The notes under the pieces are model-generated. The model made no database searches. It was not told where the DNA came from and was given only the letters and a program-made list of their open reading frames with translations. DNA of 64,000 bases, taken from the NCBI GenBank assembly GCA_964609455.1, contig CAZSRD010000001.1:70920-134919 (forward strand), read 5' to 3'. A program made the position numbers and the translations under genes. Each line of letters begins with the position of its first letter. The stretch's first letter is position 1. This DNA is from an uncultured Methanosarcinales archaeon (lineage in GTDB: Archaea > Nanobdellota > Nanobdellia > Woesearchaeales > JACPBV01). Shown in pieces: positions 1-58,870 of this stretch.

Positions 1-543
1 TTAGAGTTTCCAGATTACATTAGCATTGAAGATGAAATTATTGATATCTTAAAGAGCAGGAACAAAAGATTGTATCTTGCATTGCCTTTATTACTTATTG
101 AGAAGTTTGATTATAATAGGATAATTAAGAGACTGGATAAAAAGTTACATAAGGAATTTGATAAGATAATTGGGATTACAGCTAAAATCTTTAAGCTTGA
201 GGGGATTGATAATCAGCTGCCAAGGGGAAAATTTGATAAGGGGGATTTCGAGTATTATTACAGCTCTTTTAAACAATTCATTGCCAGTAAAGAGAAAAAA
301 GATGAAGAAGATCTTAAGGAAAGCATAAGAATACGCTCAAAACTAAATATCAATAAGGCTTCATCTACAATATTCGCTCCGGGAAAATTGAGGATTATGA
401 ACCAGATATTTAATCATGAAAAACTGACTAATACTGAATTAAAATATTACTATAGGTCCATAAGGCCTTTGATACATGCAATACTGAATGAAAATCTGCA
501 GAAATATGTTCGAATTATTGAATCGACCAAAAAGTATAGTTAG
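1..543 (+). CDS. Hypothetical protein, 5'-truncated by the window edge. Reading frame 1 is open from base 1. The track ORF starts at an internal TTG at position 70.
   Basis: Open frame from nt 1 to the stop at 541-543. Lys/Glu-rich with no recognisable motif. Confidence 0.35.
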   Translation, partial: LEFPDYISIEDEIIDILKSRNKRLYLALPLLLIEKFDYNRIIKRLDKKLHKEFDKIIGITAKIFKLEGIDNQLPRGKFDKGDFEYYYSSFKQFIASKEKKDEEDLKESIRIRSKLNINKASSTIFAPGKLRIMNQIFNHEKLTNTELKYYYRSIRPLIHAILNENLQKYVRIIESTKKYS

Positions 544-546
544 AAT

Positions 547-561
547 TTAGGAAACAACCTA
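547..561. repeat. 15-bp direct repeat TTAGGAAACAACCTA, copy 1. It overlaps the stop of the PhzF-like gene.
   Basis: Exact 15-mer is also at 1477-1491. The two copies bracket the PhzF-family gene. Confidence 0.5.
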
Positions 562-1628: not shown

Positions 1629-1964
1629 ATGAGAAAAATAATCTATTCAATAATCTTGTTGTGTGTTTTAGTTGGCTGCACAATACAGGAACCAGTAGAA
1701 GAAGTAACAGAACCAACAGTTGAAGAAATCCTTGAACCACAACTAACAATCGAACAGGCAAGAGAACTAGCTCAAGGCACAGAATGCACAGAAAAAGGAA
1801 CATTAATAGATAATTATATGTTTAATGAAAATTCAAAAACCTGGTGGATTGATTTAGAGATGAAGCCAGAGTTTGAAAACGAGCTTTGCAGTCCAGCATG
1901 TGTTGTTTTTGAAGAAACCAATGAAGTAGAGATCAACTGGAGATGCACAGGCGCTTTACCTTAA
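1629..1964 (+). CDS. Small secreted/lipoprotein-like protein, cysteine-rich
   Basis: N-terminal MRKIIYSIILLCVLVGC is a signal peptide with a lipobox-like LVGC. Six Cys in 111 aa. Confidence 0.45.
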   Translation: MRKIIYSIILLCVLVGCTIQEPVEEVTEPTVEEILEPQLTIEQARELAQGTECTEKGTLIDNYMFNENSKTWWIDLEMKPEFENELCSPACVVFEETNEVEINWRCTGALP

Positions 1965-2804
1965 ATCGAAATATTCAGTGAGTCTCCCTAGATGTATCAT
2001 TATATTAGTCTTAACATCGAAGTACCTTTCCCGGCCATAAAATCCTAACCCTAAACCTTCCTGAAATGCAACAGCATATGATGTTTTCTTAATATGCTTT
2101 TTGATGATTTTATGCACACTGCTATAAAATAACATCCTGACAAGCGCAGCAGCCCCAGATTCATCATCTGGCCTTACCCTTTCAGCGCTTGAATGCTGCA
2201 AAACAACCTCTCCATCCTTTATTCTGTAGTTAGTAGGAGCACATAATCCTTCTAAGTTTATGCCATCCCTGCATATCTTCCCTAATCTAAAACCCCATTT
2301 CCCAAATAATTCACATCTGCGTTTAAAATCAGCCTTTTTCAGCTCATTAAAAAAGCTTTTCCTTGCGCATTCCGAAGCAATATAAACCTCGCCATTTGCA
2401 ACAACAACCCCAAAAACCTGAGGTTTATGCCCCAAATAACTTGGCAGGAACTCATCCGGAATGCAGTAAAGAGCCCTGTCTGACCATTGCAACTCATCGC
2501 CAAAATGAACAGGAACTGGAACTTCACTCTCTGCAAGTTCTTGCCCATGTAATGCGAACAACAATCCGCCAACCCCGCAAAATAGCCCATCATATCTTCT
2601 GTCATCTGATCCTGCATGGTAAACAGGAACAACATATTCATCCCCGCCATAATCCAATGAAACAACATCCCTTTTAGTGTTCAAAGGCAGCCAGGCTTCA
2701 AATAGCTCCCTATTCCTCCCCATCGCTTCAACCTGTTCAGGTGTAAGCCCTTCAGCTACCCTGCTCGGCAGCAAATCTATTTCATCTTCTATCAAGCGCA
2801 ACAT
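1956..2804 (-). CDS. Hypothetical protein with atypical composition (GC-rich, Arg/Leu/Gly/Val-rich)
   Basis: 282-aa ORF. Its DNA is visibly more GC-rich than neighbouring genes. No confident motif. Antisense ORFs 2339-2668 and 2363-2677 are nested inside and regarded as spurious. Confidence 0.45.
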   Translation of the reverse strand: MLRLIEDEIDLLPSRVAEGLTPEQVEAMGRNRELFEAWLPLNTKRDVVSLDYGGDEYVVPVYHAGSDDRRYDGLFCGVGGLLFALHGQELAESEVPVPVHFGDELQWSDRALYCIPDEFLPSYLGHKPQVFGVVVANGEVYIASECARKSFFNELKKADFKRRCELFGKWGFRLGKICRDGINLEGLCAPTNYRIKDGEVVLQHSSAERVRPDDESGAAALVRMLFYSSVHKIIKKHIKKTSYAVAFQEGLGLGFYGRERYFDVKTNIMIHLGRLTEYFDLR

Positions 2805-2844
2805 AAACCGTCAAAGTTACAGGGCTTTTTTTAAATATATCTAT

Positions 2845-3336
2845 TTATGCAACCAGCTTCTTAACAAATCTAGAACTCAACCCAGCAAAAGCAGCCCATA
2901 ACAAATCGCTGAAGAACAGAGCAATAACTATTGCATTTACTGCTTTTACAGGCATTCCTGCTAGATAAACATCAGTAAGCCATAACCAGGGCATCTGAAT
3001 AAGATAAGCAGCTAAAGCAGCAATTATCAGATTCCATCTCAGCCTTATAAATAAGCCAAATAACCCTCCAAGAATAACATTCCCAACTAGGACATAAGGA
3101 TTATTCAAGGCAGCAGCAGTCCATATTGAGCCAAAAGCACCTGAGATTATTCCTCCAACAGGGCCATAAATCAAAGCTGCTAAAAATATCAAATACTGAA
3201 AGAAATGAACCCTAACACCAAAAACAGTTGTATGAAACAAGCCTAAAACATTTGGGAATATTGCTAAGAATGAGAATAAAGTTATGTTTTTCCATGTCCA
3301 TTTTATATCGAAGTTGAAGATGTTTTTGTATTGCAT
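2845..3336 (-). CDS. Small polytopic membrane protein, ECF-transporter S-component-like (putative vitamin/queuosine-precursor uptake)
   Basis: 163 aa with about 5 hydrophobic helices and Gly-rich helices (GPVGGIISGAFGS). No partner ATPase in the window. Confidence 0.4.
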   Translation of the reverse strand: MQYKNIFNFDIKWTWKNITLFSFLAIFPNVLGLFHTTVFGVRVHFFQYLIFLAALIYGPVGGIISGAFGSIWTAAALNNPYVLVGNVILGGLFGLFIRLRWNLIIAALAAYLIQMPWLWLTDVYLAGMPVKAVNAIVIALFFSDLLWAAFAGLSSRFVKKLVA

Positions 3337-3371
3337 AAAAAAAGATAAGAGCTTCTAATTTAAATAATTAA

Positions 3372-4607
3372 CTAATCCAGCACAGGCATTATGCAGCTTC
3401 TAGATGCAATATCTTTTCCAATCTTTCTCAGGGCAGCTTCAACCTTGCTTAGCTCTGTCCTTTCAGTAACCATCGCTAATGGAACAAACTCTCCTTCTGG
3501 CCTGTGTTTTTCATCCTGCACAACCTTTGCTATATTCACTCCAAAATCTGCAAGGGCAGTCGCTATCTTTGCAAAAACCCCTGCAACATGCAAAGCATCA
3601 AAAGCTACAAAAAACCTTGAATCAGTAAGCTCGGTTGATAATATCTGGCATTTCTTTCCATCAAACCAATTAATCTCCCCATATTCTTTGCCAATCCTTT
3701 TTGCAATGTTTCTTATATCGCTGACAACAGCTCCAGGTGTTGCTGGCGAGCCAGCGCCCTCTCCTGCAAAGAGAAGATGCGCATTACCCTCAAGATAAAC
3801 ACCATTCATTTCGTAACTTATCTTTGCCAAGTCATGAGTTTTAATAACTAAAGCAGGTCTTACCCACGCATTTAACCTGCTATCTATAATTCTTGCTGCA
3901 GCTATAAGTTTTATCTTATACCCTGGGTCAAACCTGGAAGCTAAATAAAGGTCATTCTTAGTTAATTTTGTAATTCCCTCTTTATATATCTCTTCAGAGC
4001 TTATCTTACATCCAAAATTAATGGAAGCCAATATTGCCAGTTTCTGCGCAGCATCCTTTCCTTCAACATCAAAGCTGGGATCCTTTTCTGCAAAGCCTTT
4101 CTGCTGCGCTTCTTTTAATGCATCTTTATAGCTTAATCCTTCACCCATTCTTGTTAAAATATAATTGGTTGTTCCATTCAAGATGCCCATAATTGTTTTT
4201 GTATTATTTCCAACTGCCCCAAACTTCAATGCATTGATTATTGGAATCCCGCCGCAGACAGCAGCTTCAAAGAACAAATACACCTTATTTTTAATTGCTA
4301 TTTCATTAAGCTCTGCCCCATATTTATCAATAACAGCTTTGTTTGCTGTAACAACATGCTTTCCATTCTCCAAAGCTTTTTTTATAAACTCGTAAGCAGG
4401 ATTATACCCTCCAATCAGCTCAACAACAATATCAACTTCTTTATTTTCCAGAACATCATTAACATCTGTAGAAAAAGGCAAGCCAAAAACATCTCTTTCT
4501 TTTCTGGAATCGACTAACTTAACTATCTTAATCTCTTTATCCCCCTTTAACTGCTCCACAACTCCGCTTCCAATAGTTCCTAAGCCAATTATTCCAACAT
4601 TTGCCAT
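3372..4607 (-). CDS. hom: Homoserine dehydrogenase with C-terminal ACT domain
   Basis: N-terminal NAD-binding MANVGIIGLGTIGSGVV. The catalytic core and C-terminal regulatory domain are typical of Hom. 411 aa. Confidence 0.85.
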   Translation of the reverse strand: MANVGIIGLGTIGSGVVEQLKGDKEIKIVKLVDSRKERDVFGLPFSTDVNDVLENKEVDIVVELIGGYNPAYEFIKKALENGKHVVTANKAVIDKYGAELNEIAIKNKVYLFFEAAVCGGIPIINALKFGAVGNNTKTIMGILNGTTNYILTRMGEGLSYKDALKEAQQKGFAEKDPSFDVEGKDAAQKLAILASINFGCKISSEEIYKEGITKLTKNDLYLASRFDPGYKIKLIAAARIIDSRLNAWVRPALVIKTHDLAKISYEMNGVYLEGNAHLLFAGEGAGSPATPGAVVSDIRNIAKRIGKEYGEINWFDGKKCQILSTELTDSRFFVAFDALHVAGVFAKIATALADFGVNIAKVVQDEKHRPEGEFVPLAMVTERTELSKVEAALRKIGKDIASRSCIMPVLD

Positions 4608-6302: not shown

Positions 6303-6680
6303 TTAATTCCCTAAATAAACAACATCTTTTTCTTTTTTAAAGTGAGGGTCTCCAGAAACCAATTGCAGTTTATGCGCTTTTGCGCTTTCATATATTAAAG
6401 AATCCCCTAATCCCCACTTCTTCTTGACATTTGTTTTAGCTGCATTCAGAGCTGTTTGTGGCTCTACAGGTATGACAAAACATCTGGACATCATAAAAAC
6501 CATAAAACCATCTGCTTCCTGCTCTGTATGAGTTAATAAAAAATGTTTATAGACTTCAGAGAGATTTATTACGCTAATGAATAGCTTTCCATCTCCATCA
6601 ATATATTCTTCAACCTTTTTTCCCAACTTGGTTCCGTTGAAATACTCTACCCAACACCAAGAATCAAGCAAAACGGTCAA
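6303..6680 (-). CDS. vapC: PIN-domain toxin (VapC-like)
   Basis: Acidic PIN residues (LLDS near the N-terminus, GDSLIYESA near the C-terminus). 125 aa. Overlaps the upstream small ORF by 17 nt. Confidence 0.7.
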   Translation of the reverse strand: MTVLLDSWCWVEYFNGTKLGKKVEEYIDGDGKLFISVINLSEVYKHFLLTHTEQEADGFMVFMMSRCFVIPVEPQTALNAAKTNVKKKWGLGDSLIYESAKAHKLQLVSGDPHFKKEKDVVYLGN

Positions 6681-6858
6681 TTTCTTCCCTCACAAATGGC
6701 CTTTTAGTTTTGGCTTTGCCGAAATAAGATTTTTTTAATCTTTTTGCCTTGCTTATAAGCTTTTGAATTGTTTCATCATAGGATTCTGTATTTAATTCAT
6801 TCTTCATCATTGTCAACAAAAAGTATGTATCATCCTTTAAAGCAACAGTTGTAGCCAT
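6664..6858 (-). CDS. vapB: Putative antitoxin (VapB-like) of the PIN toxin
   Basis: 64-aa ORF immediately upstream of vapC and overlapping it. Basic C-terminus. Confidence 0.5.
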   Translation of the reverse strand: MATTVALKDDTYFLLTMMKNELNTESYDETIQKLISKAKRLKKSYFGKAKTKRPFVREEIDRFA

Positions 6859-8515: not shown

Positions 8516-9226
8516 TTATTCTAGAAATTTAGCTGCGAGTTTTTTTCCTGCACTTCCCGGCAGGAATTTTATGAGATTAAAGAACGCTGTTTCTGGCAAT
8601 AAACCTATATTGTTATTTTTGAAATTTTCCACAAAAAATGAAGGGTCTTTTATATAGCCATCATAGATTTTTGCCAGTAAAGCTGCTCTCAATGTTATCC
8701 TATCATTTTCTATATTGAAAGGCGGATCTTTGAAGAGGTCCTCTTTGCTTATACCGTTCTTTGATAAAACTGAATATGGGTCGTTTGAAGTCAAAGCAAG
8801 GATGTATTGATTTTTCATCAATACTTTCTCACCTATTGGGATACGCTCATCAATATTTTCCAGGGCCTCAACATTAATGAAGATTATCTTGTAGTAATCA
8901 TCTAATAACGTGTTGTAAAACCTTTCTTTGATATATGTGGTGTAAAACAGTGTTTCTTCTGCGTTTAAATACCTTAGTTCTTCACCTGCGATTAGGGCAG
9001 TGATGAATTCATCCTTATTTTGCAATATTATTAATTTGTCATCATTTAAAAAATTCTCCTTTAGGCTTCTCATATCCTGGACTACAAAAGAGCCAAAAAT
9101 TACAGAGAAGATTATCAATGTTAAAATTGAGAATGCTATTGCCTTAATTGTCTTTTCCACTATGATTAGAATAAGCGCTATTATGAATATCATCAATGTC
9201 AGGCTTGAGAACAGCATAATATCCAT
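8516..9226 (-). CDS. Membrane-anchored hypothetical protein
   Basis: Two N-terminal hydrophobic helices followed by a soluble domain. 236 aa. Confidence 0.35.
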   Translation of the reverse strand: MDIMLFSSLTLMIFIIALILIIVEKTIKAIAFSILTLIIFSVIFGSFVVQDMRSLKENFLNDDKLIILQNKDEFITALIAGEELRYLNAEETLFYTTYIKERFYNTLLDDYYKIIFINVEALENIDERIPIGEKVLMKNQYILALTSNDPYSVLSKNGISKEDLFKDPPFNIENDRITLRAALLAKIYDGYIKDPSFFVENFKNNNIGLLPETAFFNLIKFLPGSAGKKLAAKFLE

Positions 9227-16474: not shown

Positions 16475-16547
16475 AGCCCCGTAGTCTAGCGGTCAAGGAT
16501 AGGGCCCTCTGGAGGCTCTGACGGCAGTTCGAATCTGCCCGGGGCTA
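16475..16547 (+). tRNA. tRNA-Gln (anticodon CTG)
   Basis: Acceptor AGCCCCG/CGGGGCT, T-arm GGCAG-TTCGAAT-CTGCC, anticodon loop CTCTGGA. No encoded CCA. Followed by CTTTTT. Confidence 0.8.
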
Positions 16548-16553
16548 CTTTTT

Positions 16554-17240
16554 ATGATGAATATGAAAAATAAACTTATTGGAAACAAGGTTTCCAAGAA
16601 TCCCCCTGGGATTTTTTCAAATTTCCCCCTGGGAAAAAAAATAGCACAAGGTGCAGAAGCGAAACTCTTTTTAGTAGATAATAAAATAGTCAAAGACAGG
16701 TTTAGGAAGGATTATAGGATAAAAGAAATAGATGAAAGACTAAGAAAGTCCAGAACAAAAAGAGAAGCAAAGATATTTTCTAAGCTAAGTGCAATTGGTT
16801 TTCCTTCTCCTAAATTGATTGAGAGTGATGATAAAGAAAAGATAATTATGGAGTTTATTAAAGGCCCTAAAGTAAGGGATATTCTTGAAGAGAAGGATTA
16901 TGTTAAACTATGTTCTGAGATTGGCAGGAAGGTTGCTGTTTTGCATAATAATGGAATAATCCATGGTGATTTGACAACTTCTAATATGATTTTTAGTAAT
17001 GAAGTTTATTTTATTGATTTTGGATTAAGCTTTTTTTCAGATAAAGTAGAGGATAAAGCAGTTGATTTGCATCTTTTGAAACAGGCTCTTGAAAGCAAGC
17101 ATTACAAAGTTTGGGAGAAATGTTTTGATGCTGCAATTAAAGGTTATAAGAAAGAATGTAAGGATAGTTCTTTGGTTTTTAAAAGATTAGAGAATGTTGA
17201 AGGCAGGGGAAGGTATAAGGGGAAGAGGAAAAATATATAA
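16554..17240 (+). CDS. bud32: Bud32/PRPK-type atypical Ser/Thr kinase (KEOPS subunit)
   Basis: Gly-loop region KIAQGAEAKLFL, IIHGDLTTSNMIF catalytic loop and FIDFGLS. 228 aa is the typical Bud32 size. Confidence 0.75.
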   Translation: MMNMKNKLIGNKVSKNPPGIFSNFPLGKKIAQGAEAKLFLVDNKIVKDRFRKDYRIKEIDERLRKSRTKREAKIFSKLSAIGFPSPKLIESDDKEKIIMEFIKGPKVRDILEEKDYVKLCSEIGRKVAVLHNNGIIHGDLTTSNMIFSNEVYFIDFGLSFFSDKVEDKAVDLHLLKQALESKHYKVWEKCFDAAIKGYKKECKDSSLVFKRLENVEGRGRYKGKRKNI

Positions 17241-17961: not shown

Positions 17962-18987
17962 ATGGTGGTAGATAAATCATATAAGATAGCCACGATTGGC
18001 TCTCATTCTGCGTTACAGATACTTAAAGGAGCGAAAGACGAAGGTTTTGAGACAATTTGTATTTGTCTAAAAGGTAGAGAAAAGCCTTACCAGCAGTTTA
18101 AGGTTGCTGATAAGATAATTTCTATAAAGGATTTCAGTGAGTTTGAGAAAGTACAAGATGAGCTGCTTAAAGATAATGCTATCATAATACCCCATGCTTC
18201 ATTCATTTCTTATATGGGGCTTGAGAGGGTAGAGAAATTAAAGGTTCCTTATTTCGGGAATAAGGAAATATTAAAATGGGAGTCAGACAGGAACTGGGAA
18301 AGGAAGTGGCTTACGAAAGCAGGGCTTAAGATGCCTAAGATTTTCAAGAAACCGGAAGATATTGACAGGCCTGTAATACTCAAGTTCCATGGCGCAGATG
18401 GAGGCAAAGGCTATTTTTTAGCCAAGAATTATAATGATTTCAAGAGAAAGATAAAATTACACCCTAACAGCAAGAAATATGTCATTCAGGAATATATTCT
18501 AGGAGTTCCTATGTATGCTCATTATTTCCATTCTCCTTTAACAGGGGAAACAGAGTTGATGGGTTTTGACAAAAGATATGAGAGTAATGTTGACAGCCTA
18601 GGAAGGATTTCTGCCAGGGACCAGATGGCATTGCCTAAAGAACAAGTTGATCCTAGCTATGTTATTGTTGGTAACATGCCTGTTGTAGTTAGAGAATCTT
18701 ACTTACCAGGTTATATAAGCAAAGGAGAGAAAACAGTAAAAGAAAGCAAAAAGTTAGTTAAAGGTGGGTTGTTCGGGCCTTTCTGCCTAGAAACAATAAT
18801 AACTCCTGACGGAGAGATTATCACCTTTGAGATTTCAGCAAGGATTGTTGCTGGCACAAACCCTTATGTTCATGGCTCACCATATACCTGGCTGAGGTAT
18901 AATGAGCCTATGTCAACTGGAAGGAGGATTGCTCGTGAAATAAAGTTGGCTATTGAGCAAAATAAATTAAACAAGGTGTTGAGTTAA
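17962..18987 (+). CDS. purP: PurP-type 5-formaminoimidazole-4-carboxamide ribonucleotide (FAICAR) synthetase, formate-dependent ATP-grasp
   Basis: IATIGSHSALQILKGAKDEGFETICICLKGREKPY is the characteristic archaeal PurP N-terminus. 341 aa. Confidence 0.7.
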   Translation: MVVDKSYKIATIGSHSALQILKGAKDEGFETICICLKGREKPYQQFKVADKIISIKDFSEFEKVQDELLKDNAIIIPHASFISYMGLERVEKLKVPYFGNKEILKWESDRNWERKWLTKAGLKMPKIFKKPEDIDRPVILKFHGADGGKGYFLAKNYNDFKRKIKLHPNSKKYVIQEYILGVPMYAHYFHSPLTGETELMGFDKRYESNVDSLGRISARDQMALPKEQVDPSYVIVGNMPVVVRESYLPGYISKGEKTVKESKKLVKGGLFGPFCLETIITPDGEIITFEISARIVAGTNPYVHGSPYTWLRYNEPMSTGRRIAREIKLAIEQNKLNKVLS

Positions 18988-18988
18988 A

Positions 18989-20299
18989 ATGGCTAAAAAG
19001 AGGGTTATTAAAAAAGTTCATAGATCAAAAACCAGGAAACATAAAGGCATGTTTGATAAGTTCTTTAAGGGCGTTAAGATTGAGGTAAACAAGGTAAGCA
19101 GCGAAGTAAAGGAGAAAGAAGAGGATGTTTTCGGAAAGCTTGGCGAGATAAAAGAAAAAGTTCTTAGAGTTGGCGGATCAACAAATATTTCTAAAATATT
19201 AGAAAGTTATGACAAAACTAACATTACAATAGGCGTTTTAGGTGGCCATAGCGCTTTGGATGTTTGCAGGGGGGCTAAGAAATTAGGTTTCAGAACAGTA
19301 GCTGTATGTAAAAAGGGGCGTGAACAGACTTATGCTAAGTATTACAAAACAAGAGAGGATGGAAGAGGCATTATTGACGAGATTATCTTAGTTGATAAGT
19401 TTGATGATATTGCCAAAAAAGATGTGCAGGATAAATTAAGAGAGCTAAATACTATTTTTATACATAACAGGTATTTCTGGGTTTATTGTGATTTCAAAAA
19501 GATTGAGAAACAGTTTAAGGTGCCTATTTTTGGTACCCGAACCATGCTTAAATTAGAAGAAAGGGATGTTCCTAAGAACCAGTATTATTTACTTGAAAGA
19601 GCAGGTATAAGAATGCCTAAGATTTATTCTGATGCTAAGAAGATTGACAGGTTAGTGATTGTAAAGGTTGCAGAGGCTGCAAGAGGCTATGAAAGGGCAT
19701 TCTTTTTTTGCAACAATTATGAAAGCTATAAGCAGAAATCTGATGATATGTTAAAGAAGAAGATAATAACTCCAGTTGCCTTAAAAAAAGCTGTTATTGA
19801 AGAGTATATTGTTGGTGCCCAAGTTAATTTTAATTATTTCTATAGTCCTTTGACTGAAGAGCTTGAATTGATGGGGACTGACACAAGGAGACAGACTAAT
19901 CTAGATGGGTTGTTAAGGTTACCTGCTGATGTTCAGCTGGAAGTATTGAAGTATATCCAACCTAAATTAGTAGAGACAGGGCATATTGCAGTCACAACAA
20001 AAGAAAGTATTTTAGAAAAAATATTTTTAATTGGCGAGAAGTTTGTTGAAACTTGTAAAAAAGAGCATCCGCCTGGGATAATTGGACCATTTGCATTGCA
20101 AGGAGCTGTTGCTGCTGAGGAAGGCAAAGAGGAATTGGTTATATTTGATGTTTCAATGAGAATTCCCGGAAGTCCTGGGACAATTTCAACGCCATATTCT
20201 GGTTACTTGCATCATGATTCTATATCTTATGGTGAAAGGATTGCTATGGAGATAAAAAAGGCAATTGAAGAAGATAAATTAGATTGGATTTGTACTTAA
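18989..20299 (+). CDS. Second PurP-family paralog with a ~75-aa basic N-terminal extension
   Basis: ITIGVLGGHSALDVCRGAKKLGFRTVAVCKKGREQTY parallels the upstream PurP. 436 aa. Confidence 0.6.
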   Translation: MAKKRVIKKVHRSKTRKHKGMFDKFFKGVKIEVNKVSSEVKEKEEDVFGKLGEIKEKVLRVGGSTNISKILESYDKTNITIGVLGGHSALDVCRGAKKLGFRTVAVCKKGREQTYAKYYKTREDGRGIIDEIILVDKFDDIAKKDVQDKLRELNTIFIHNRYFWVYCDFKKIEKQFKVPIFGTRTMLKLEERDVPKNQYYLLERAGIRMPKIYSDAKKIDRLVIVKVAEAARGYERAFFFCNNYESYKQKSDDMLKKKIITPVALKKAVIEEYIVGAQVNFNYFYSPLTEELELMGTDTRRQTNLDGLLRLPADVQLEVLKYIQPKLVETGHIAVTTKESILEKIFLIGEKFVETCKKEHPPGIIGPFALQGAVAAEEGKEELVIFDVSMRIPGSPGTISTPYSGYLHHDSISYGERIAMEIKKAIEEDKLDWICT

Positions 20300-24435: not shown

Positions 24436-25929
24436 ATGAATGTAGATGGATTAACCAGAATATTAGACTCTGAACATGCTGGATTTGTTGATTTATTAGG
24501 CAAAGAAATAGAAATGGAGAAAGTTGAAAGAGTTTATCGTGCTTTAGCAACAGCTCCTGCCCCAACTGGAAATATTATGGAGCTTAGCGTTCTTTTGAAA
24601 AGATTGATGAAAGAAGAGTTCGGATGGGGAGGATATAATATAGATTATAGGGTAGACACAAACAGAAAAGGACAAGTTGGATTGGTGTTTGGAAATTTAG
24701 ATAATAATGAAACATTCATTTCTATTGTCCCCCATGGAGACCAAATAATGTTTAATGTTGATGAAAGAGGTAGGGGGTTCCCTGAAGGTGTTGAAGGTAA
24801 GGTTTCTGAAGGTTTTAGGTGTGTGCAGGTATTCCCTAGCCATAAAAACAAAATGAAAAGTGGACAGGTGTGGGAAGCTAGTTGTTATGTTTATGACCCA
24901 ACAAAATATACAGTTGATACTTGGAACCATCCTGGAATAAAGCTTTTGACTAAAGGGGTTGTAAGGTGTGTAGCAGACCCTGATGTTTCATTGCAGCCTC
25001 TTGTAGAAGGGGAATATGAAAAGTTATTGTCCTCTTTTTCTTTATATATAAAACCCGAACAGATGCCAAGCAGGGAAGATTATTTAGGATGGAGGATGTT
25101 ACAAAGAAATGTAAGGAATATGATGGGTAATTCACAACCGGCAGTAAAACAAGGAGAGGTTTCTCAATTTATTTTTGAATATCCCAAAAAGGTTGGAGAA
25201 ATTCCATACGATGCTGTTGTTATTTATGATAATGAAAGCTATTATAATTCCGGACACTGGCCAATAATTGAATCTGCATGTGCGGATGACAGAGCTGGTA
25301 TTTGCGCTGCTCTTTTTGCTTCTGACCTTTTGTTTAGGTACTATAAAAAAGGGGGAATTAACGTTGAGGTAGTGGATGGGGACGAAATAAATGTAGTCGG
25401 TCCAAAAATGCTGGTTAATCTTCATGCAGATGAAGAAGGACCATCAGATAGGGGGGTAAATTGGGATGATGGTGGAAACTTCGGAACTTTTGATGCAGTA
25501 GCAAGAAACAAGGTACCTGCATCACACGCCATAATCATTGACGGACACAAAGAAGCAGGAGATACAAGGTTAGGAAACGGAGCTTTCTTTTCTTATAATC
25601 CTGGTGGAGGATACGGAAGTAGGACTCCTCAAGGATTAAAAGCTTTCCTAAAGCTTATTTCGCAAATTGCCCATATTAAAAAGATTAGGTTTAATATGAA
25701 TCCTGAGTATGTAAGCAGATCAAGTGATGTGGATCTCAAACAGTATCAAGATATAATTAATGTAGGATTTCCAATTGATCATCCACATGAGATGCCTGAA
25801 AGTATACACTTAGATGATGTTGTAGATGTTGCTAGGGCAGTAGCGCTCATAAGTGTTGCACATGCAATAAAACCAATAAGGGAACAGTATTTATGCATGA
25901 GGCATGATCGTTATAGGTACCACCCTTAA
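24436..25929 (+). CDS. Hypothetical protein with possible M42/M20-like metallopeptidase-fold signatures
   Basis: The ordered PHGDQ ... ACADDRAGICAAL ... LHADEEG resembles the M42 His/Asp/Glu-Glu metal-ligand order. 497 aa is much longer than M42 enzymes, so the assignment is weak. Confidence 0.3.
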   Translation: MNVDGLTRILDSEHAGFVDLLGKEIEMEKVERVYRALATAPAPTGNIMELSVLLKRLMKEEFGWGGYNIDYRVDTNRKGQVGLVFGNLDNNETFISIVPHGDQIMFNVDERGRGFPEGVEGKVSEGFRCVQVFPSHKNKMKSGQVWEASCYVYDPTKYTVDTWNHPGIKLLTKGVVRCVADPDVSLQPLVEGEYEKLLSSFSLYIKPEQMPSREDYLGWRMLQRNVRNMMGNSQPAVKQGEVSQFIFEYPKKVGEIPYDAVVIYDNESYYNSGHWPIIESACADDRAGICAALFASDLLFRYYKKGGINVEVVDGDEINVVGPKMLVNLHADEEGPSDRGVNWDDGGNFGTFDAVARNKVPASHAIIIDGHKEAGDTRLGNGAFFSYNPGGGYGSRTPQGLKAFLKLISQIAHIKKIRFNMNPEYVSRSSDVDLKQYQDIINVGFPIDHPHEMPESIHLDDVVDVARAVALISVAHAIKPIREQYLCMRHDRYRYHP

Positions 25930-26891
25930 GATAAATCAGCTTTCTTGAGTTTTCTGAAAAGATTATCCACTAATCCAATACCTTTTTTTGTCTTAAGATC
26001 CAATCCTATGCTGCATTCTCTTAGGAAATGGGCTTCTGCTCTCTGAGCAATCTCTTTTGATCTTATGTAGATCCCGCCAGTTATTATATTATGCTCATCC
26101 CTTGTGTAGATGAATACATGTTGGGGATCATTATCTACGACGGGCATCATAAAATCAAAGCCAAAAGGATACTCTAAGAAATACATCTCAATCATCTTTT
26201 GTGTCTTCAATATGTTTTTCAGGTTTTTTATAGTAAGCTCTACTTCATGGATCGCTGCTTTTTTGTCTTTTAATTTATTGAATGCGTGTTTGTAAGGCAC
26301 ATAAATATTGAATTGGGTTAAATATATTATCTTAAGCTTTTTCTGGACAAAACCGCGCTCAATCAACGTATCAACATAACCCTGTCTTGAAGAAGAGTTG
26401 CTTATTATGCCTGTAAAAGAGATGTTTGCAAAAGGAGAGACGATATAGATCTTATCCGAATTCTTAAGTATCTTATTTGCCTCATTGAAGAATTCTCTTG
26501 ATGTATTAAGGTATCTGACAAGAGGTGCTTCATCCTTTTCCCCTAAGTGCTTGAATACTTGCTCTATCTTTGATGATGCTTTCTTAAATTCATCAAGATT
26601 ATTTGAAAGATTACCTTCTGTTTTCTTTAGCCTTGATTTTATTCCTTCAATATCCAATACATAGTTTGCTTTGGAGACCTTTTGGATAAGATCCTCCTGC
26701 ACCAATCTTTTGATCTGTCTAAAAAGATTTGGCTTGTTTATTGTATGCTTGAAAAGAGAATTATACCTTTCATCGATATTTGCTGCCGAAGCTTTTATCC
26801 CTTCATTGTTTAGCATATTGATTATAGTCAGTATCTGGTATTGCTGCTCAGTTATATCCAGCCATTCCTTAAGCTGCTTTAGCTCTTCCAT
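25926..26891 (-). CDS. Winged-HTH transcriptional regulator, TrmB-like (N-terminal wHTH plus a C-terminal effector-like domain)
   Basis: The N-terminal ~70 aa have the wHTH pattern (ITEQQYQILTIINMLNNEGIKASAANIDE). 321 aa. Confidence 0.35.
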   Translation of the reverse strand: MEELKQLKEWLDITEQQYQILTIINMLNNEGIKASAANIDERYNSLFKHTINKPNLFRQIKRLVQEDLIQKVSKANYVLDIEGIKSRLKKTEGNLSNNLDEFKKASSKIEQVFKHLGEKDEAPLVRYLNTSREFFNEANKILKNSDKIYIVSPFANISFTGIISNSSSRQGYVDTLIERGFVQKKLKIIYLTQFNIYVPYKHAFNKLKDKKAAIHEVELTIKNLKNILKTQKMIEMYFLEYPFGFDFMMPVVDNDPQHVFIYTRDEHNIITGGIYIRSKEIAQRAEAHFLRECSIGLDLKTKKGIGLVDNLFRKLKKADLS

Positions 26892-27576: not shown

Positions 27577-28014
27577 ATGCTTACAGAAAAAGAGCTGTTG
27601 ATATTGTCTCATTTGAGGGAAAACTCGAGGAAGACGATAACAGATATAGCAAAAGAAACAGGAATACCAAAATCTACGGTTTTTGATAATATAAATAAAT
27701 TAAAAACAAAAGTGATTAAAAAGAATGTTTCATTGCTTGATTTTTCAAAGGTAGGGTATGGATTAAGGGTGAACTTCGCTATAAAAGCAAAAAATAAAAA
27801 AGAAGCCAGAGAATTCCTGGCAAACCATAAAAATGTTAACTCAGTTTATAAAACAACAAACAATTTTGACTTTTATATTGAAGCTATTTTTAAGAATATG
27901 AAGGAAATGCATGATTTCAAAGACGAACTGGATAATTTAGGCATTAAAAGAAGCGAAGAGCATTTTTTGATAGATGATATCAAAAGAGAGGGATTTATGC
28001 TTAGGAAGGAATAA
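27577..28014 (+). CDS. Lrp/AsnC-family transcriptional regulator (tandem paralog)
   Basis: ELLILSHLRENSRKTITDIAKETGIPKSTVFDNINKL plus a RAM domain. 145 aa. Confidence 0.75.
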   Translation: MLTEKELLILSHLRENSRKTITDIAKETGIPKSTVFDNINKLKTKVIKKNVSLLDFSKVGYGLRVNFAIKAKNKKEAREFLANHKNVNSVYKTTNNFDFYIEAIFKNMKEMHDFKDELDNLGIKRSEEHFLIDDIKREGFMLRKE

Positions 28015-28573
28015 CTCTCTGAAGACAAAACAAAGCTAGGTTAAGTGTTTCCATATTGCTTCTTACTGATGCTTCCCTTAATTCTGAGGGAACTAAATAA
28101 TCTTCAATTGAGATATATTCAAATCCAAACCTTCTCCTATCTCCTGGCTCTGGCAGCTCTAATGCTAAGACGGGGTAAGTGCATGGCTGGCCAAAATCAA
28201 AAGTGTCTGGCGGAAAAATTCTGTCTAAGAGGTATGGGATATCCGGATTAGGCAATATTTCTGGTTTTGATATAAGATAATCCCCATGCACTTCCAAAAG
28301 TATTTTATCGTGCTGTCGGTTCAAACCGCTTGCAAAGGATATCCTATGGTTATATTCTCGCAATGGTATTTCTCCTCCATTTTCGAGAAGGGAATTCAGC
28401 GTTAAATAAGGGGGGTATTGCGCAAAAGAAACATTCTCAGGAGAGAATATTGGCTTAAAATCAACAGAAGGTTCTCCTCTTAGGAAAGAATCAATTCGCC
28501 TGCAAGCTTCATATGCATTTCTTTCGTTTGGATGAACTCCCCAGATTACGGCAATTTTCTTTGCAGATTCCAT
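28001..28573 (-). CDS. Hypothetical protein with atypical composition (GC-rich, Pro/Arg/Leu-rich). The N-terminus weakly resembles the AstE/AspA HxxE metal motif.
   Basis: IAVIWGVHPNERNA resembles the GxHGNE start of the succinylglutamate desuccinylase/aspartoacylase family. At 190 aa it is shorter than that family. Confidence 0.3.
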   Translation of the reverse strand: MESAKKIAVIWGVHPNERNAYEACRRIDSFLRGEPSVDFKPIFSPENVSFAQYPPYLTLNSLLENGGEIPLREYNHRISFASGLNRQHDKILLEVHGDYLISKPEILPNPDIPYLLDRIFPPDTFDFGQPCTYPVLALELPEPGDRRRFGFEYISIEDYLVPSELREASVRSNMETLNLALFCLQRVIPS

Positions 28574-56680: not shown

Positions 56681-56755
56681 TGCCCCCAACGGGATTTGAA
56701 CCCATGTCCCAGCCTCGAAAAGGCTGAATGATTGACCGGACTACACCATGGGGGC
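56681..56755 (-). tRNA. tRNA-Glu (anticodon TTC)
   Basis: Reverse complement reads GCCCCCA-...-CAGCC-TTTTCGA-GGCTG-GGAC-ATGGG-TTCAAAT-CCCGT-TGGGGGC-A. Confidence 0.85.
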
Positions 56756-56806
56756 GTAAGTATTGAGTTTTCTAATTTTTTTATAAATCTTTGTTTTTGT
56801 AAAGAG

Positions 56807-56912
56807 TGGGCTCGCAGGGATTTGAACCCCAGACCGCCGGCTCACTTAGAGCCGTTTGCCTAGAACGTGGCCATATAAGACCGGCGCTCTAACCAGGCTG
56901 AGCTACGAGCCC
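56807..56912 (-). tRNA. Intron-containing tRNA with apparent anticodon TAT (tRNA-Ile2-like). 31-nt intron at the canonical 37/38 position (plus coordinates 56843-56873).
   Basis: Acceptor GGGCTCG/CGAGCCC and an Ile/Met-type D-arm AGCTCAGCCTGGTTAGAGC. Anticodon stem CCGGT/GCCGG with loop CTTATA|intron|A. Intron-end TAAG pairs with loop CTTA (a BHB-like arrangement). 106 nt precursor. Confidence 0.6.
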
Positions 56913-56964
56913 ATTAAGGTAAGAGAATAAGTATTTTGTTTATAAATATTTTTGTTTTGATAAA

Positions 56965-57036
56965 TGCGACGGCCGGGATTTGAACCCGGGTGAGAGCCTT
57001 GGCAAGGCCCTATCATAACCGCTAGATCACCATCGC
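56965..57036 (-). tRNA. tRNA-Gly (anticodon GCC)
   Basis: Anticodon arm GGGCC-TTGCCAA-GGCTC, T-arm CCGGG-TTCAAAT-CCCGG, acceptor GCGATGG/CCGTCGC. Confidence 0.85.
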
Positions 57037-57039
57037 AGA

Positions 57040-57112
57040 TGGGCCCAGCCAGAGTCGAACTGGCGACTTACACCTTGTAAGGGTGTTGTCATAACCACTA
57101 GACCATGAGCCC
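57040..57112 (-). tRNA. tRNA-Val (anticodon TAC)
   Basis: Anticodon arm ACACC-CTTACAA-GGTGT, T-arm GCCAG-TTCGACT-CTGGC. Only 3 nt separate it from tRNA-Gly. A TTTATATG TATA-like box sits ~-24 to -31 relative to the 5' end. Confidence 0.85.
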
Positions 57113-57970: not shown

Positions 57971-58870
57971 CTAAGATTTACTAGAGCCATTTTCAACTAT
58001 TACCTGTTGAGGCTCTAATCCGCTCTTTATCGAATCAATCACCTTGCTCTTCTGCGAGCTTAGATCAGATATGGTTTTTTCAGGAAGGACCTTAGAGCCC
58101 CTTAGCTTCTCAAATAAAGATTCATTTATCTCTATGCATTTGTTTACTAGATTAAGAGTCAGTTCCCTTCTCCAATCTGGCCTAGATTGGTTTAATAAGG
58201 TTATAATCTCGTTCAGCCTTTCGAAAGAAACCAATATGCTGTTTAAAAGCAATTCTGCGTTAAGCGGGTCTAAAACCTTTTTGAAATGCTTGTTGCCTGA
58301 AATTAGCGTAAGCGACAAAACCTCATTAAGGACATCCTCAAACGATGAGACAGAAACATAGATATCATTTATCTCCCTTTTTCTTAGTGTATTCTCCTCT
58401 ACTTTGTTTATGAGCCTGTTTATATTCTGCCTAAACACAAGCAAGGAAGACCTTAAGCGATTTATCCTCTCATTAAATGATATGTCATATATCTCGCTAA
58501 GGATTATATCCTGTTTTATGGACACAAGCTTTGAGGTAACAACAGCCAAAAGCAATAATCCAAATATTACTTCTATTATAGCTATAATCTTGAATATGCC
58601 TACAGGGGTAATATCCCCGAAGCCTGTTGTTGTTGCTGTTATAAAGCTGAAATATATCCTGTCAACAAAGCTTTTAACGCGCTCGCCGTTTGAGGGATAT
58701 AATAAAAAAGATGAGCTGCTTTCCAACATAAGGTAAAAGACTCCAAAAAGCACAACTATCAATAGCCATATAATCAGGATGCTAGAAAAACTAAACCTAT
58801 CCGGGAAAGTGTTCAGCTTTCTTCCTTTTAATTTAGCAAATAATTCGTTTATGGAGATAAAGTTTTTCAT
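57971..58870 (-). CDS. Two-TM potassium-channel pore protein with a cytoplasmic C-terminal domain
   Basis: Pore helix plus selectivity filter FITATTTGFGDITP between two hydrophobic helices. 299 aa. Confidence 0.65.
   Translation of the reverse strand: MKNFISINELFAKLKGRKLNTFPDRFSFSSILIIWLLIVVLFGVFYLMLESSSSFLLYPSNGERVKSFVDRIYFSFITATTTGFGDITPVGIFKIIAIIEVIFGLLLLAVVTSKLVSIKQDIILSEIYDISFNERINRLRSSLLVFRQNINRLINKVEENTLRKREINDIYVSVSSFEDVLNEVLSLTLISGNKHFKKVLDPLNAELLLNSILVSFERLNEIITLLNQSRPDWRRELTLNLVNKCIEINESLFEKLRGSKVLPEKTISDLSSQKSKVIDSIKSGLEPQQVIVENGSSKS

What the first reader, a model, noticed from the sequence alone, without database searches (positions are those of the whole stretch)
1956..2804. 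Compositionally foreign gene (GC-rich, Arg/Gly/Leu-rich) in an AT-rich, Lys/Ile/Asn-rich genome. Likely horizontal acquisition.
The DNA of this 282-aa ORF is conspicuously more GC-rich than the flanking genes, and its amino-acid usage departs from the local norm. It carries no recognisable motif.

A second gene with the same signature occurs at 28001-28573. Both are candidates for recently transferred cargo of unknown function.
Basis: seen in the sequence. Interest (0 to 1): 0.5.

Follow-up and report, generated by a model that had tools for sequence, protein, structure and literature searches.

The report
Rare orphan gene, natively coded, not foreign
The flagged gene is a real accessory gene of a DPANN (Woesearchaeota-like) archaeon from an extremely rare protein family, but its extra GC comes from the amino acids of its acidic N-terminal half, not from foreign DNA, so it is an ordinary orphan gene and not fresh horizontal cargo.

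Summary
ORF 1956-2804 (-), 282 aa, is real and is the most GC-rich ORF of the window: 42.2% against 35.8 +/- 2.5%, z = 2.5. It has the fewest Lys+Ile+Asn and the most Arg+Gly+Leu.

The excess is modest and is not a DNA signature. About three quarters of it follows from the amino-acid sequence, and it sits in codons 1-135. Synonymous codon choice (z = -0.4, rank 22 of 58), the GC3 residual and the dinucleotide signature (rank 36 of 58) are all native. No mobility genes, tRNA or flanking repeats adjoin it. Native SHMT and PurE reach 40% GC.

The gene is accessory. Only two remote homologues turned up among about 1.8 billion representatives, each in an unrelated context, and none in phage, plasmid or viral collections. 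The nearest relative genome keeps the adjacent hom + membrane-protein pair but has VapBC in place of this gene. Arg-over-Lys usage is shared by all three family members.

A low-confidence model resembles small protein-kinase-like folds (Bud32, WaaP, RIO). By my motif alignment the catalytic Asp residues are replaced, which suggests a pseudokinase-like protein. This is tentative.

Recent transfer from a GC-rich donor is not supported. An old acquisition cannot be excluded.

The parts
1956..2804 (-). ORF A: a 282-aa protein-coding gene of an orphan family with three known sequence clusters
   Evidence: ORF listing. An 849-nt open frame at 42% GC is very unlikely by chance. Two remote homologues with shared motifs. 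Population variants are 3 synonymous, plus A189V and V97I. The same junctions on both sides appear in independent assemblies L001, L065 and L083.
2400..2804 (-). Codons 1-135: the acidic (pI 4.4), Lys/Ile/Asn-poor N-terminal half that carries almost all of the GC excess
   Evidence: GC 46.2%, GC1 0.63, GC3 0.39, K+I+N 5%. Codons 136-282 are 38.8% GC and 18% K+I+N. Codon-choice z is -0.02.
2616..2663 (-). Beta-hairpin VSLDYGGDEYVVPVYH (G54, P60 and Y62 invariant). Possibly the counterpart of a kinase Gly-rich loop, but with no beta3 Lys.
   Evidence: Alignment A1. Predicted strands 44-52 and 55-63. The kinase assignment is my inference.
2418..2432 (-). Conserved motif GHKPQ (G125, H126, P128 and Q129 invariant), placed before the beta4-beta5 hairpin and the putative hinge
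   Evidence: I compared it by eye with GFPSP of the window's own Bud32. This is inference.
2229..2255 (-). Conserved motif LEGLCAPTN (L184, G186, C188 and N192 invariant), placed where a kinase catalytic loop HGDLxxxN would lie. The catalytic Asp position holds Leu or Phe.
   Evidence: The spacing argument is my inference. It has no statistical sequence support.
2196..2198 (-). Invariant Gln203, 11 residues after N192. This is the spacing between the catalytic-loop Asn and the metal-binding Asp of IDFG in the window's Bud32.
   Evidence: Inference.
2034..2069 (-). Conserved C-terminal glycine-rich motif AFQEGLGLGFYG (A246, F247, G250, G252, G254 and G257 invariant). Role unknown.
2826..2843 (-). 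A/T-rich TATA-box-like element (ATAGATATATTTAAAAAA on the minus strand), centred about 29 nt upstream of the ATG, inside the 40-nt spacer after the upstream membrane-protein gene
   Evidence: Read from the sequence. That it acts as an archaeal promoter for a leaderless or short-leader transcript is inference.
2845..4607 (-). Conserved upstream pair: homoserine dehydrogenase (3372-4607) and a 163-aa membrane protein (2845-3336). It serves as the synteny anchor.
   Evidence: Pfam. The pair is 75% and 69% identical in sister contig L079, where VapB/PIN/PRTase follow in place of ORF A.
28001..28573 (-). A 190-aa orphan with the most Arg-biased R/(R+K) in the window, lying between an Lrp/AsnC regulator and a PLP-dependent decarboxylase.
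   Evidence: No family or PDB match. Unrelated to ORF A.

Best explanation
ORF A is a genuine chromosomal gene of an AT-rich DPANN archaeon, Woesearchaeota/Nanoarchaeota-like. It belongs to a very rare orphan protein family and occupies a rearrangement-prone slot just downstream of a conserved hom + membrane-protein pair.

Its raised GC is a by-product of protein composition. The N-terminal half is acidic, rich in Gly/Val/Ala/Asp/Glu/Arg and almost free of Lys, Ile and Asn. This half is written in the host's own synonymous codon dialect. Any horizontal arrival was therefore old enough to be fully ameliorated at silent sites, or the gene is lineage-specific. It is not recent cargo from a GC-rich donor.

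I infer the following about function. The protein is cytoplasmic and probably adopts a small protein-kinase-like bilobal fold of the Bud32/RIO/WaaP type. In that fold the beta3 Lys, the catalytic-loop Asp and the metal-binding Asp are replaced (Leu187, Gln203) and the loop Asn192 is kept. It would then act as a non-phosphorylating binding or scaffold protein, a pseudokinase, and not as an enzyme.

Shown: the gene is real, the composition is decomposed, the codon usage is native, the family is rare, and the gene is absent at the syntenic site.
Inferred: the fold, the loss of catalysis, the promoter, and the age of acquisition.
For: Real gene:
- The homologues share invariant motifs.
- The SNP pattern is 3 synonymous to 2 conservative non-synonymous.
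- Both junctions are reproduced in independent assemblies.

Composition:
- GC 42.2%, with 40.6% expected from the amino acids alone.
- Codon-choice z = -0.38. In the GC-rich half it is -0.02.
- Dinucleotide signature rank 36 of 58.
- Native SHMT and PurE genes reach 40.4% and 40.1% GC.
- R/(R+K) is 0.58, 0.55 and 0.50 in the three family members, whose hosts are 36, 45 and 33% GC. Arg-richness is therefore a family trait.

Accessory status:
- The only hits are P0005 (33% identity, E = 2.5e-20) and P0006 (26% identity, E = 4.6e-5).
- The three loci share no neighbouring genes.
- Sister contig L079 has hom (75% identity) and the membrane protein (69% identity), followed by VapB/PIN/PRTase.

Host identity:
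- An intron-bearing tRNA.
- PurP, S3Ae, prefoldin and Bud32.
- The nearest named hom relatives are Woesearchaeota, Pacearchaeota and Nanoarchaeota.

Fold:
- The order of secondary-structure elements in the AF2 model.
- All 50 top Foldseek PDB hits are protein-kinase domains, E = 0.02-0.09.
- Motifs are collinear with the window's Bud32, with identical Asn-to-(Asp/Gln) spacing of 11.
Against: - The GC, K+I+N and R+G+L values are the extremes of the window. R/(R+K) is well outside the norm.
- The least conserved part of the protein is the most GC-rich. Long residence under AT mutation pressure would not predict this.
- A small nominal GC3 excess remains (z = 1.9 to 2.0).
- Synteny with the only sister contig is limited to two genes, so absence there is weak evidence either way.
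- The fold inference rests on a low-confidence model (pLDDT 43, pTM 0.43) with TM-scores of about 0.22.
- Profile-profile and shuffle-controlled sequence comparisons with Bud32 show nothing (hhalign probability 0.5%, z below 0.6).
- No Pfam kinase model matches any family member, even at E = 10.
Confidence: 0.6

Rival explanations
1. Recent horizontal acquisition from a GC-richer donor. The gene still carries the donor's base composition and amino-acid bias.
For: - Highest GC, lowest K+I+N and second-highest R/(R+K) in the window.
- Absent at the syntenic site of the sister contig.
- No orthologues elsewhere.
- Nominal GC3 excess, z about 2, in the N-terminal half.
Against: - Synonymous codon choice and dinucleotide signature are native. 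GC3, which should carry the strongest donor signal, is unremarkable.
- Arg is encoded 18 times out of 21 by AGA/AGG, as in the host.
- There are no mobility genes, tRNA target or flanking repeats.
- No homologue exists in well-sampled GC-rich lineages. The only relatives are 37% and 33% GC genes.
- Nothing turned up in phage, plasmid or IMG/VR collections.
- The gene is fixed, with only point variants, in several samples.
Confidence: 0.08
2. Old horizontal transfer within a pool of AT-rich, DPANN-like genomes. The family moves as a single-gene cassette and each copy is then ameliorated to its host.
For: - Three members in three unrelated gene neighbourhoods.
- In L066 the homologue lies in a 1.8-kb AT-rich end segment (34-40% GC, GC3 0.29) of a 45-47% GC contig. 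There it deviates in the opposite direction from ORF A.
- The slot after hom + membrane protein holds different cargo in the sister genome: VapBC/PRTase at 26-30% GC.
Against: - No mobile-element machinery sits next to any copy.
- With three members no phylogeny can be built.
- The AT-rich end of L066 could be an assembly chimera.
- Vertical descent with rapid divergence and loss would give the same pattern.
Confidence: 0.25
3. ORF A is an active atypical kinase or nucleotide-transferring enzyme that uses non-canonical catalytic residues, for example the conserved C-terminal GxGxGxxG motif.
For: - Kinase-like structural hits.
- Conserved Asn192, His126 and a Gly-rich motif at 246-257.
Against: - By my alignment, the positions of the beta3 Lys, the catalytic Asp and the metal-binding Asp hold non-catalytic residues in all three members.
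- No kinase profile matches.
Confidence: 0.1
4. Not a functional gene: a chance or decaying ORF in a locally GC-richer stretch.
For: - Orphan status.
- Long alternative-frame ORFs lie over the same stretch, at 2339-2668 (-) and 2363-2677 (+).
Against: - An 849-nt open frame is very unlikely by chance.
- Full-length homologues of 33% and 26% identity have 36 invariant columns.
- Variants are synonymous-biased.
- Codon usage is native.
Confidence: 0.02

Closest known systems
Bud32/PRPK, RIO and Kdo/WaaP small kinases of the protein-kinase-like superfamily (Pfam PF01163 RIO1, PF06293 Kdo)
   Same: - Similar size, about 230-290 aa.
- The same predicted order of elements: N-terminal beta-hairpin, beta4-beta5, hinge, two helices, loop, beta-hairpin, helical C-lobe.
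- The G-x-[LC]-x3-N loop, and an invariant residue 11 positions after the Asn, mirror HGDLxxxN...D in the window's own Bud32.
   Different: - No significant sequence or profile similarity.
- No beta3 Lys.
- The catalytic Asp position holds Leu or Phe, and the metal-binding Asp position holds Gln.
- There is an extra conserved C-terminal AFxxGxGxGxxG motif.
- The structural evidence comes from a model with pLDDT 43.
Genomic-island or recently transferred genes recognised by atypical composition (Lawrence-Ochman type criteria; from my own knowledge)
   Same: - Locally highest GC and unusual amino-acid usage.
- Lineage-restricted, and absent at the syntenic site of a relative.
   Different: - GC3, synonymous codon choice and dinucleotide signature are native.
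- It is a single gene with no integrase, tRNA or repeats.
- No donor lineage can be identified.
Lineage-specific orphan (ORFan) genes of DPANN archaea (from my own knowledge)
   Same: - No Pfam, NCBIfam or PDB match.
- A tiny family, found only in metagenome assemblies.
   Different: It is not a strict singleton. Two remote homologues with conserved motifs allow a family definition and a tentative fold.

Membership tests
Recently acquired foreign gene or genomic island | Total GC deviates from the host genes | tested here: met
   42.2% against 35.8 +/- 2.5%, z = 2.5, the highest of 58 ORFs. Modest: native SHMT and PurE genes reach 40%.
Recently acquired foreign gene or genomic island | Atypical synonymous codon usage or GC3 | tested here: not met
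   Leave-one-out codon-choice z = -0.38, rank 22 of 58. GC3 is 0.367 against 0.317 expected from the amino acids; z = 1.88, with a between-gene sd of 1.73.
Recently acquired foreign gene or genomic island | Atypical oligonucleotide (dinucleotide) signature | tested here: not met
   Dinucleotide relative-abundance distance ranks 36 of 58.
Recently acquired foreign gene or genomic island | Mobility hallmarks: integrase or transposase, tRNA target, flanking direct repeats | tested here: not met
   The nearest tRNA is at 16475. No repeat pair brackets the ORF. The neighbours are a lipoprotein, PhzF, a membrane protein and hom.
Recently acquired foreign gene or genomic island | Absent from close relatives at the syntenic position | tested here: met
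   L079 (hom 75% identity) has VapB/PIN/PRTase after the conserved pair. This is weak evidence: only one relative, and only two genes of synteny.
Recently acquired foreign gene or genomic island | Close homologues in a plausible donor lineage or mobile element | tested here: not met
   Only 33% and 26% identity homologues, in 37% and 33% GC genes. None in phages, plasmids or IMG/VR.
Protein-kinase-like superfamily (Bud32/RIO/Kdo type) | Bilobal kinase fold | tested here: inconclusive
Protein-kinase-like superfamily (Bud32/RIO/Kdo type) | Significant match to a kinase sequence profile | tested here: not met
   No Pfam hit at E <= 10 for any member. hhalign against the window's Bud32 gives probability 0.5%. 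Shuffle z below 0.6. The PDB profile search is empty.
Protein-kinase-like superfamily (Bud32/RIO/Kdo type) | ATP-anchoring Lys in beta3 | tested here: not met
   No conserved Lys in the N-terminal hairpin region of alignment A1.
Protein-kinase-like superfamily (Bud32/RIO/Kdo type) | Catalytic loop H-x-D-x4-N and metal-binding Asp (DFG or IDxxQ) | tested here: not met
   By my motif alignment the loop reads E-G-L-C-x3-N. Asn192 is kept and the Asp position holds Leu or Phe. The position 11 residues after Asn is an invariant Gln203, not Asp.
AstE/AspA-like zinc deacylases (considered for ORF B only) | H-x-x-E ... H zinc-binding triad, plus a profile match | tested here: not met
   ORF B contains WGVHPNE and LEVHGD, which recalled the triad to me. 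No Pfam, NCBIfam or PDB match supports this.

The most novel reading that the evidence does not exclude
ORF A founds a previously unrecognised and extremely rare family of Bud32/RIO-like pseudokinases. The family keeps the fold and the loop Asn, has lost the Lys and both Asp residues, and has gained a C-terminal GxGxGxxG motif. It hops as a single-gene cassette between AT-rich DPANN-like genomes and lands in variable slots that otherwise hold toxin-antitoxin cargo.
Probability: 0.25. Interest if true: 0.4.

Novelty: new variant of a known kind. Interest (0 to 1): 0.22.

Why it matters
The value is mostly methodological. A GC peak in an AT-rich genome can be almost wholly an amino-acid effect. 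Here it comes from an acidic, GNN-codon-rich and Lys/Ile/Asn-poor domain. It should therefore not be read as foreign DNA unless silent sites agree.

Biologically, the gene adds one more lineage-restricted orphan to a DPANN archaeon. If the kinase-like fold holds, it would be a small new pseudokinase-like family. That family has only three known members, so its general impact is limited.

Tried and rejected
Searches that found nothing:
- Family searches with Pfam, NCBIfam, PHROGs and PADLOC gave nothing for ORF A or ORF B.
- The PDB sequence search gave only noise (Csm4, E = 0.2), and the profile search was empty.
- The profile search with alignment A1 against 5.8 billion clusters added no member.
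- Phage, plasmid and IMG/VR searches gave no relatives.
- A literature search for the sample and contig identifiers gave no paper.
- The afdb50 fold library was not available.

Structure and kinase tests:
- The single-sequence AF2 model was useless, pLDDT 34.
- hhalign and a shuffle-controlled Smith-Waterman comparison against the window's Bud32 gave no signal. The kinase link therefore stays structural and motif-based only.

Synteny and context:
- Scans of GTDB representative genomes and JGI metagenome contigs with hom found only relatives of 47% identity or less, so they gave no synteny information. The sister contig came later, from the protein search plus a contig look-up.
- I tested for a conserved two-gene module, ORF A plus the small convergent neighbour. 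It is rejected: the neighbours of the three homologues are unrelated.
- A chimeric assembly is rejected. Both junctions recur in independent assemblies.
- ORF A and ORF B as paralogues is rejected.
- I found no att-like repeats around ORF A.

Full report
**Observation**

The window is 35.8% GC. ORF 1956-2804 on the minus strand is a 282-aa ATG-initiated frame. I compared it with the 58 non-overlapping ORFs of at least 100 aa.
- Its GC is the highest: 42.2%, against a mean of 35.8% and sd 2.5, z = 2.5.
- Its Lys+Ile+Asn is the lowest, 12.1%.
- Its Arg+Gly+Leu is the highest, 27.7%.
- Its immediate neighbours are 36.3% and 36.4% GC.
- At the scale of the ORF it is the GC maximum of the 64 kb. 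The serine hydroxymethyltransferase gene (0.418) and the tRNA cluster (0.417) are close behind.
- R/(R+K) is 0.58, against 0.28 +/- 0.11 elsewhere.

As a maximum out of 58 genes, z = 2.5 is unremarkable. In an overall 20-residue chi-square the ORF is not among the ten most deviant proteins.

**Where the GC comes from**

GC1 is 0.527, GC2 is 0.371 and GC3 is 0.367. GC3 is only z = 1.5, with five ORFs higher. I took the protein sequence as given and applied the codon preferences of the other 57 genes. The expected GC is then already 40.6%, against 42.3% observed (this calculation leaves out the start and stop codons), so roughly three quarters of the excess is dictated by the amino acids.

The silent-site measures are native:
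- The GC3 residual is z = 1.88, in a distribution whose between-gene sd is 1.73.
- A leave-one-out likelihood of synonymous codon choice gives z = -0.38, rank 22 of 58.
- Arg is encoded by AGA or AGG in 18 of 21 cases, as in the host.
- The dinucleotide signature ranks 36 of 58.

The excess sits almost entirely in codons 1-135. This part is 46.2% GC with GC1 0.63, K+I+N 5% and pI 4.4. Its codon choice is exactly native (z = -0.02). Codons 136-282 are 38.8% GC.

Conserved housekeeping genes such as SHMT and PurE reach 40.4% and 40.1% GC in the same window. This is an amino-acid effect, not a foreign DNA signature.

**Is it a real gene, and whose?**

The host is an archaeon:
- It has an intron-containing tRNA.
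- It encodes two PurP genes, ribosomal protein S3Ae, prefoldin and Bud32.
- The nearest named relatives of its homoserine dehydrogenase are Woesearchaeota, Pacearchaeota and Nanoarchaeota MAGs, at 45-51% identity.

The ORF lies 40 nt downstream of a 163-aa membrane-protein gene and hom, on the same strand. An A/T-rich TATA-like element is centred about 29 nt before its ATG. Its role as a promoter is inferred.

Independent assemblies from other samples reproduce both junctions (L001, L065, L083), so the region is not a chimera. Their five differences within the ORF are three synonymous changes plus A189V and V97I.

**Phyletic distribution**

- A search of 5.8 billion clusters finds only the gene itself.
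- An exhaustive phmmer search of 1.84 billion representatives finds two remote homologues. P0005 is 266 aa, 33% identical, E = 2.5e-20. P0006 is 296 aa, 26% identical, E = 4.6e-5.
- A profile built from the three adds nothing.
- No relatives occur in phage, plasmid or IMG/VR collections.
- The three loci share no neighbouring genes.

P0006 sits in TARA Oceans contigs and has the composition of its host, 33% GC. P0005 lies in a 1.8-kb terminal segment of 34-40% GC on a contig that is otherwise 45-47% GC. It therefore deviates in the opposite direction from ORF A.

All three proteins have R/(R+K) of 0.50-0.58 whatever the host GC, so Arg-richness is a trait of the family.

The closest relative genome available is NCBI GCA_053531955.1, contig JAIYPX010000022.1 (locus L079), whose hom is 75% identical. 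It keeps hom and the membrane protein (69% identical). VapB, a PIN toxin and a phosphoribosyltransferase, all at 26-30% GC, follow in place of ORF A. None of the other window ORFs I tested has a close counterpart on that 20-kb stretch; the only other hit is a 26%-identity asd match.

The gene is thus accessory and sits in a variable slot. With only two genes of synteny, this absence is weak evidence of insertion.

**Function**

No sequence method assigns a family.

The family alignment has 36 invariant columns. They fall into these motifs:
- G-D/N-x-x-x-x-P-x-Y
- GHxPQ
- LxGxCxxxN
- an invariant Gln 11 residues after that Asn
- AFxxGxGxGxxG

AF2 on the three-sequence alignment gives a low-confidence model, pLDDT 43 and pTM 0.43. 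Its order of elements matches a small protein-kinase-like fold.
- In Foldseek against the PDB, all 50 best hits are protein-kinase domains, at E = 0.02-0.09 and TM about 0.22.

I aligned the motifs by eye to the window's own Bud32 (16554-17240, HGDLTTSN...IDFG).
- GHKPQ falls on GFPSP.
- EGLCAPTN falls on HGDLTTSN.
- Gln203 falls on the metal-binding Asp, with the same 11-residue spacing.
- There is no beta3 Lys.

On this reading the family is a pseudokinase-like protein.

This is inference. hhalign (probability 0.5%) and shuffle-controlled alignment scores (z below 0.6) give no sequence support. I put the kinase-like fold at about even odds.

**The second gene**

ORF 28001-28573 (-) is also an orphan: a singleton cluster seen on ten contigs from several samples.
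- It has the most extreme R/(R+K) in the window, 0.74, z = 4.2.
- Its GC is only 39.6% and its GC3 is average.
- Its codon choice is somewhat atypical, z = -2.7.
- It lies between an Lrp/AsnC regulator and a PLP-dependent decarboxylase followed by PheRS, and it is unrelated to ORF A.

**Verdict**

The 'compositionally foreign, recently transferred' reading is not supported at silent sites, and no donor or mobile element is evident. Accessory status and an old horizontal history remain plausible.

The gene is an ordinary DPANN orphan with a tentative pseudokinase-like fold. Three other ORFs in the window deviate far more in synonymous usage than either flagged gene: 8516-9226, 25926-26891 and 57971-58870.

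Noticed in passing
window 8516-9226 (-), 25926-26891 (-), 57971-58870 (-): These three ORFs are much stronger outliers in synonymous codon choice (z = -4.5, -4.4, -4.0) and in GC3 given the amino acids (z up to +4.7) than either flagged gene. 57971-58870 is an ion-channel (Ion_trans_2) protein. 25926-26891 has only a weak MarR-like hit, and 8516-9226 has no family. They are better candidates for foreign origin, or for membrane-protein or strand effects.
   Followed up: partly
window 56807-56912 (-): Rfam finds a 106-nt tRNA match that ARAGORN missed, presumably an intron-containing archaeal tRNA. It lies inside a cluster with tRNA-Glu, tRNA-Gly and tRNA-Val at 56681-57112.
   Followed up: no
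window 540-561 and 1470-1491: A 22-nt direct repeat, 91% identical (TTAGAATTTAGGAAACAACCTA and TTAAAACTTAGGAAACAACCTA), brackets the PhzF-family gene 559-1407. It could be chance, a shared regulatory site or an insertion footprint.
   Followed up: no
L079 10513-11524 (NCBI GCA_053531955.1, JAIYPX010000022.1): In the sister genome the slot after hom + membrane protein holds VapB, a PIN toxin and a phosphoribosyltransferase at 26-30% GC in a 34% GC contig. This looks like a variable cargo site. The window's own VapBC-like pair (6303-6858) is not orthologous to it.
   Followed up: partly
L066 1-1800 (JGI 3300001380, contig JGI1356J14229_10000127, terminal segment): The homologue P0005 and a 116-aa neighbour form an AT-rich end segment (34-40% GC, GC3 0.19-0.29) on a contig that is otherwise 45-50% GC. 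This is either an island or an assembly chimera.
   Followed up: partly
window 17962-18987 and 18989-20299 (+): Two tandem PurP (DUF1246/DUF1297, archaeal FAICAR synthetase-type) paralogues sit within a purine-biosynthesis-rich stretch. That stretch also holds purF-like genes, GARS, PurE and adenylosuccinate synthetase, which is a notable biosynthetic capacity for a DPANN-like genome.
   Followed up: no
window 3372-4607 (-): The homoserine dehydrogenase is about as similar to Clostridia and other bacterial enzymes (42-44% identity) as to most other DPANN ones (45-51%). This hints at an inter-domain history for this housekeeping gene.
   Followed up: no
window 28001-28573 (-): ORF B contains WGVHPNE and LEVHGD, which recall the H-x-x-E...H zinc site of AstE/AspA-type deacylases. 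No profile or PDB match supports this.
   Followed up: partly
window 1956-1964: ORF A and the convergent 111-aa lipoprotein-like gene (1629-1964, signal peptide with an LVGC lipobox) overlap by 9 nt at their 3' ends. No terminator-like structure lies between them.
   Followed up: no
L079 15852-17060 (-): A 402-aa protein with a Bac_DnaA_C (PF08299) hit is called on the sister archaeal MAG contig, which is unexpected for an archaeon.
   Followed up: no
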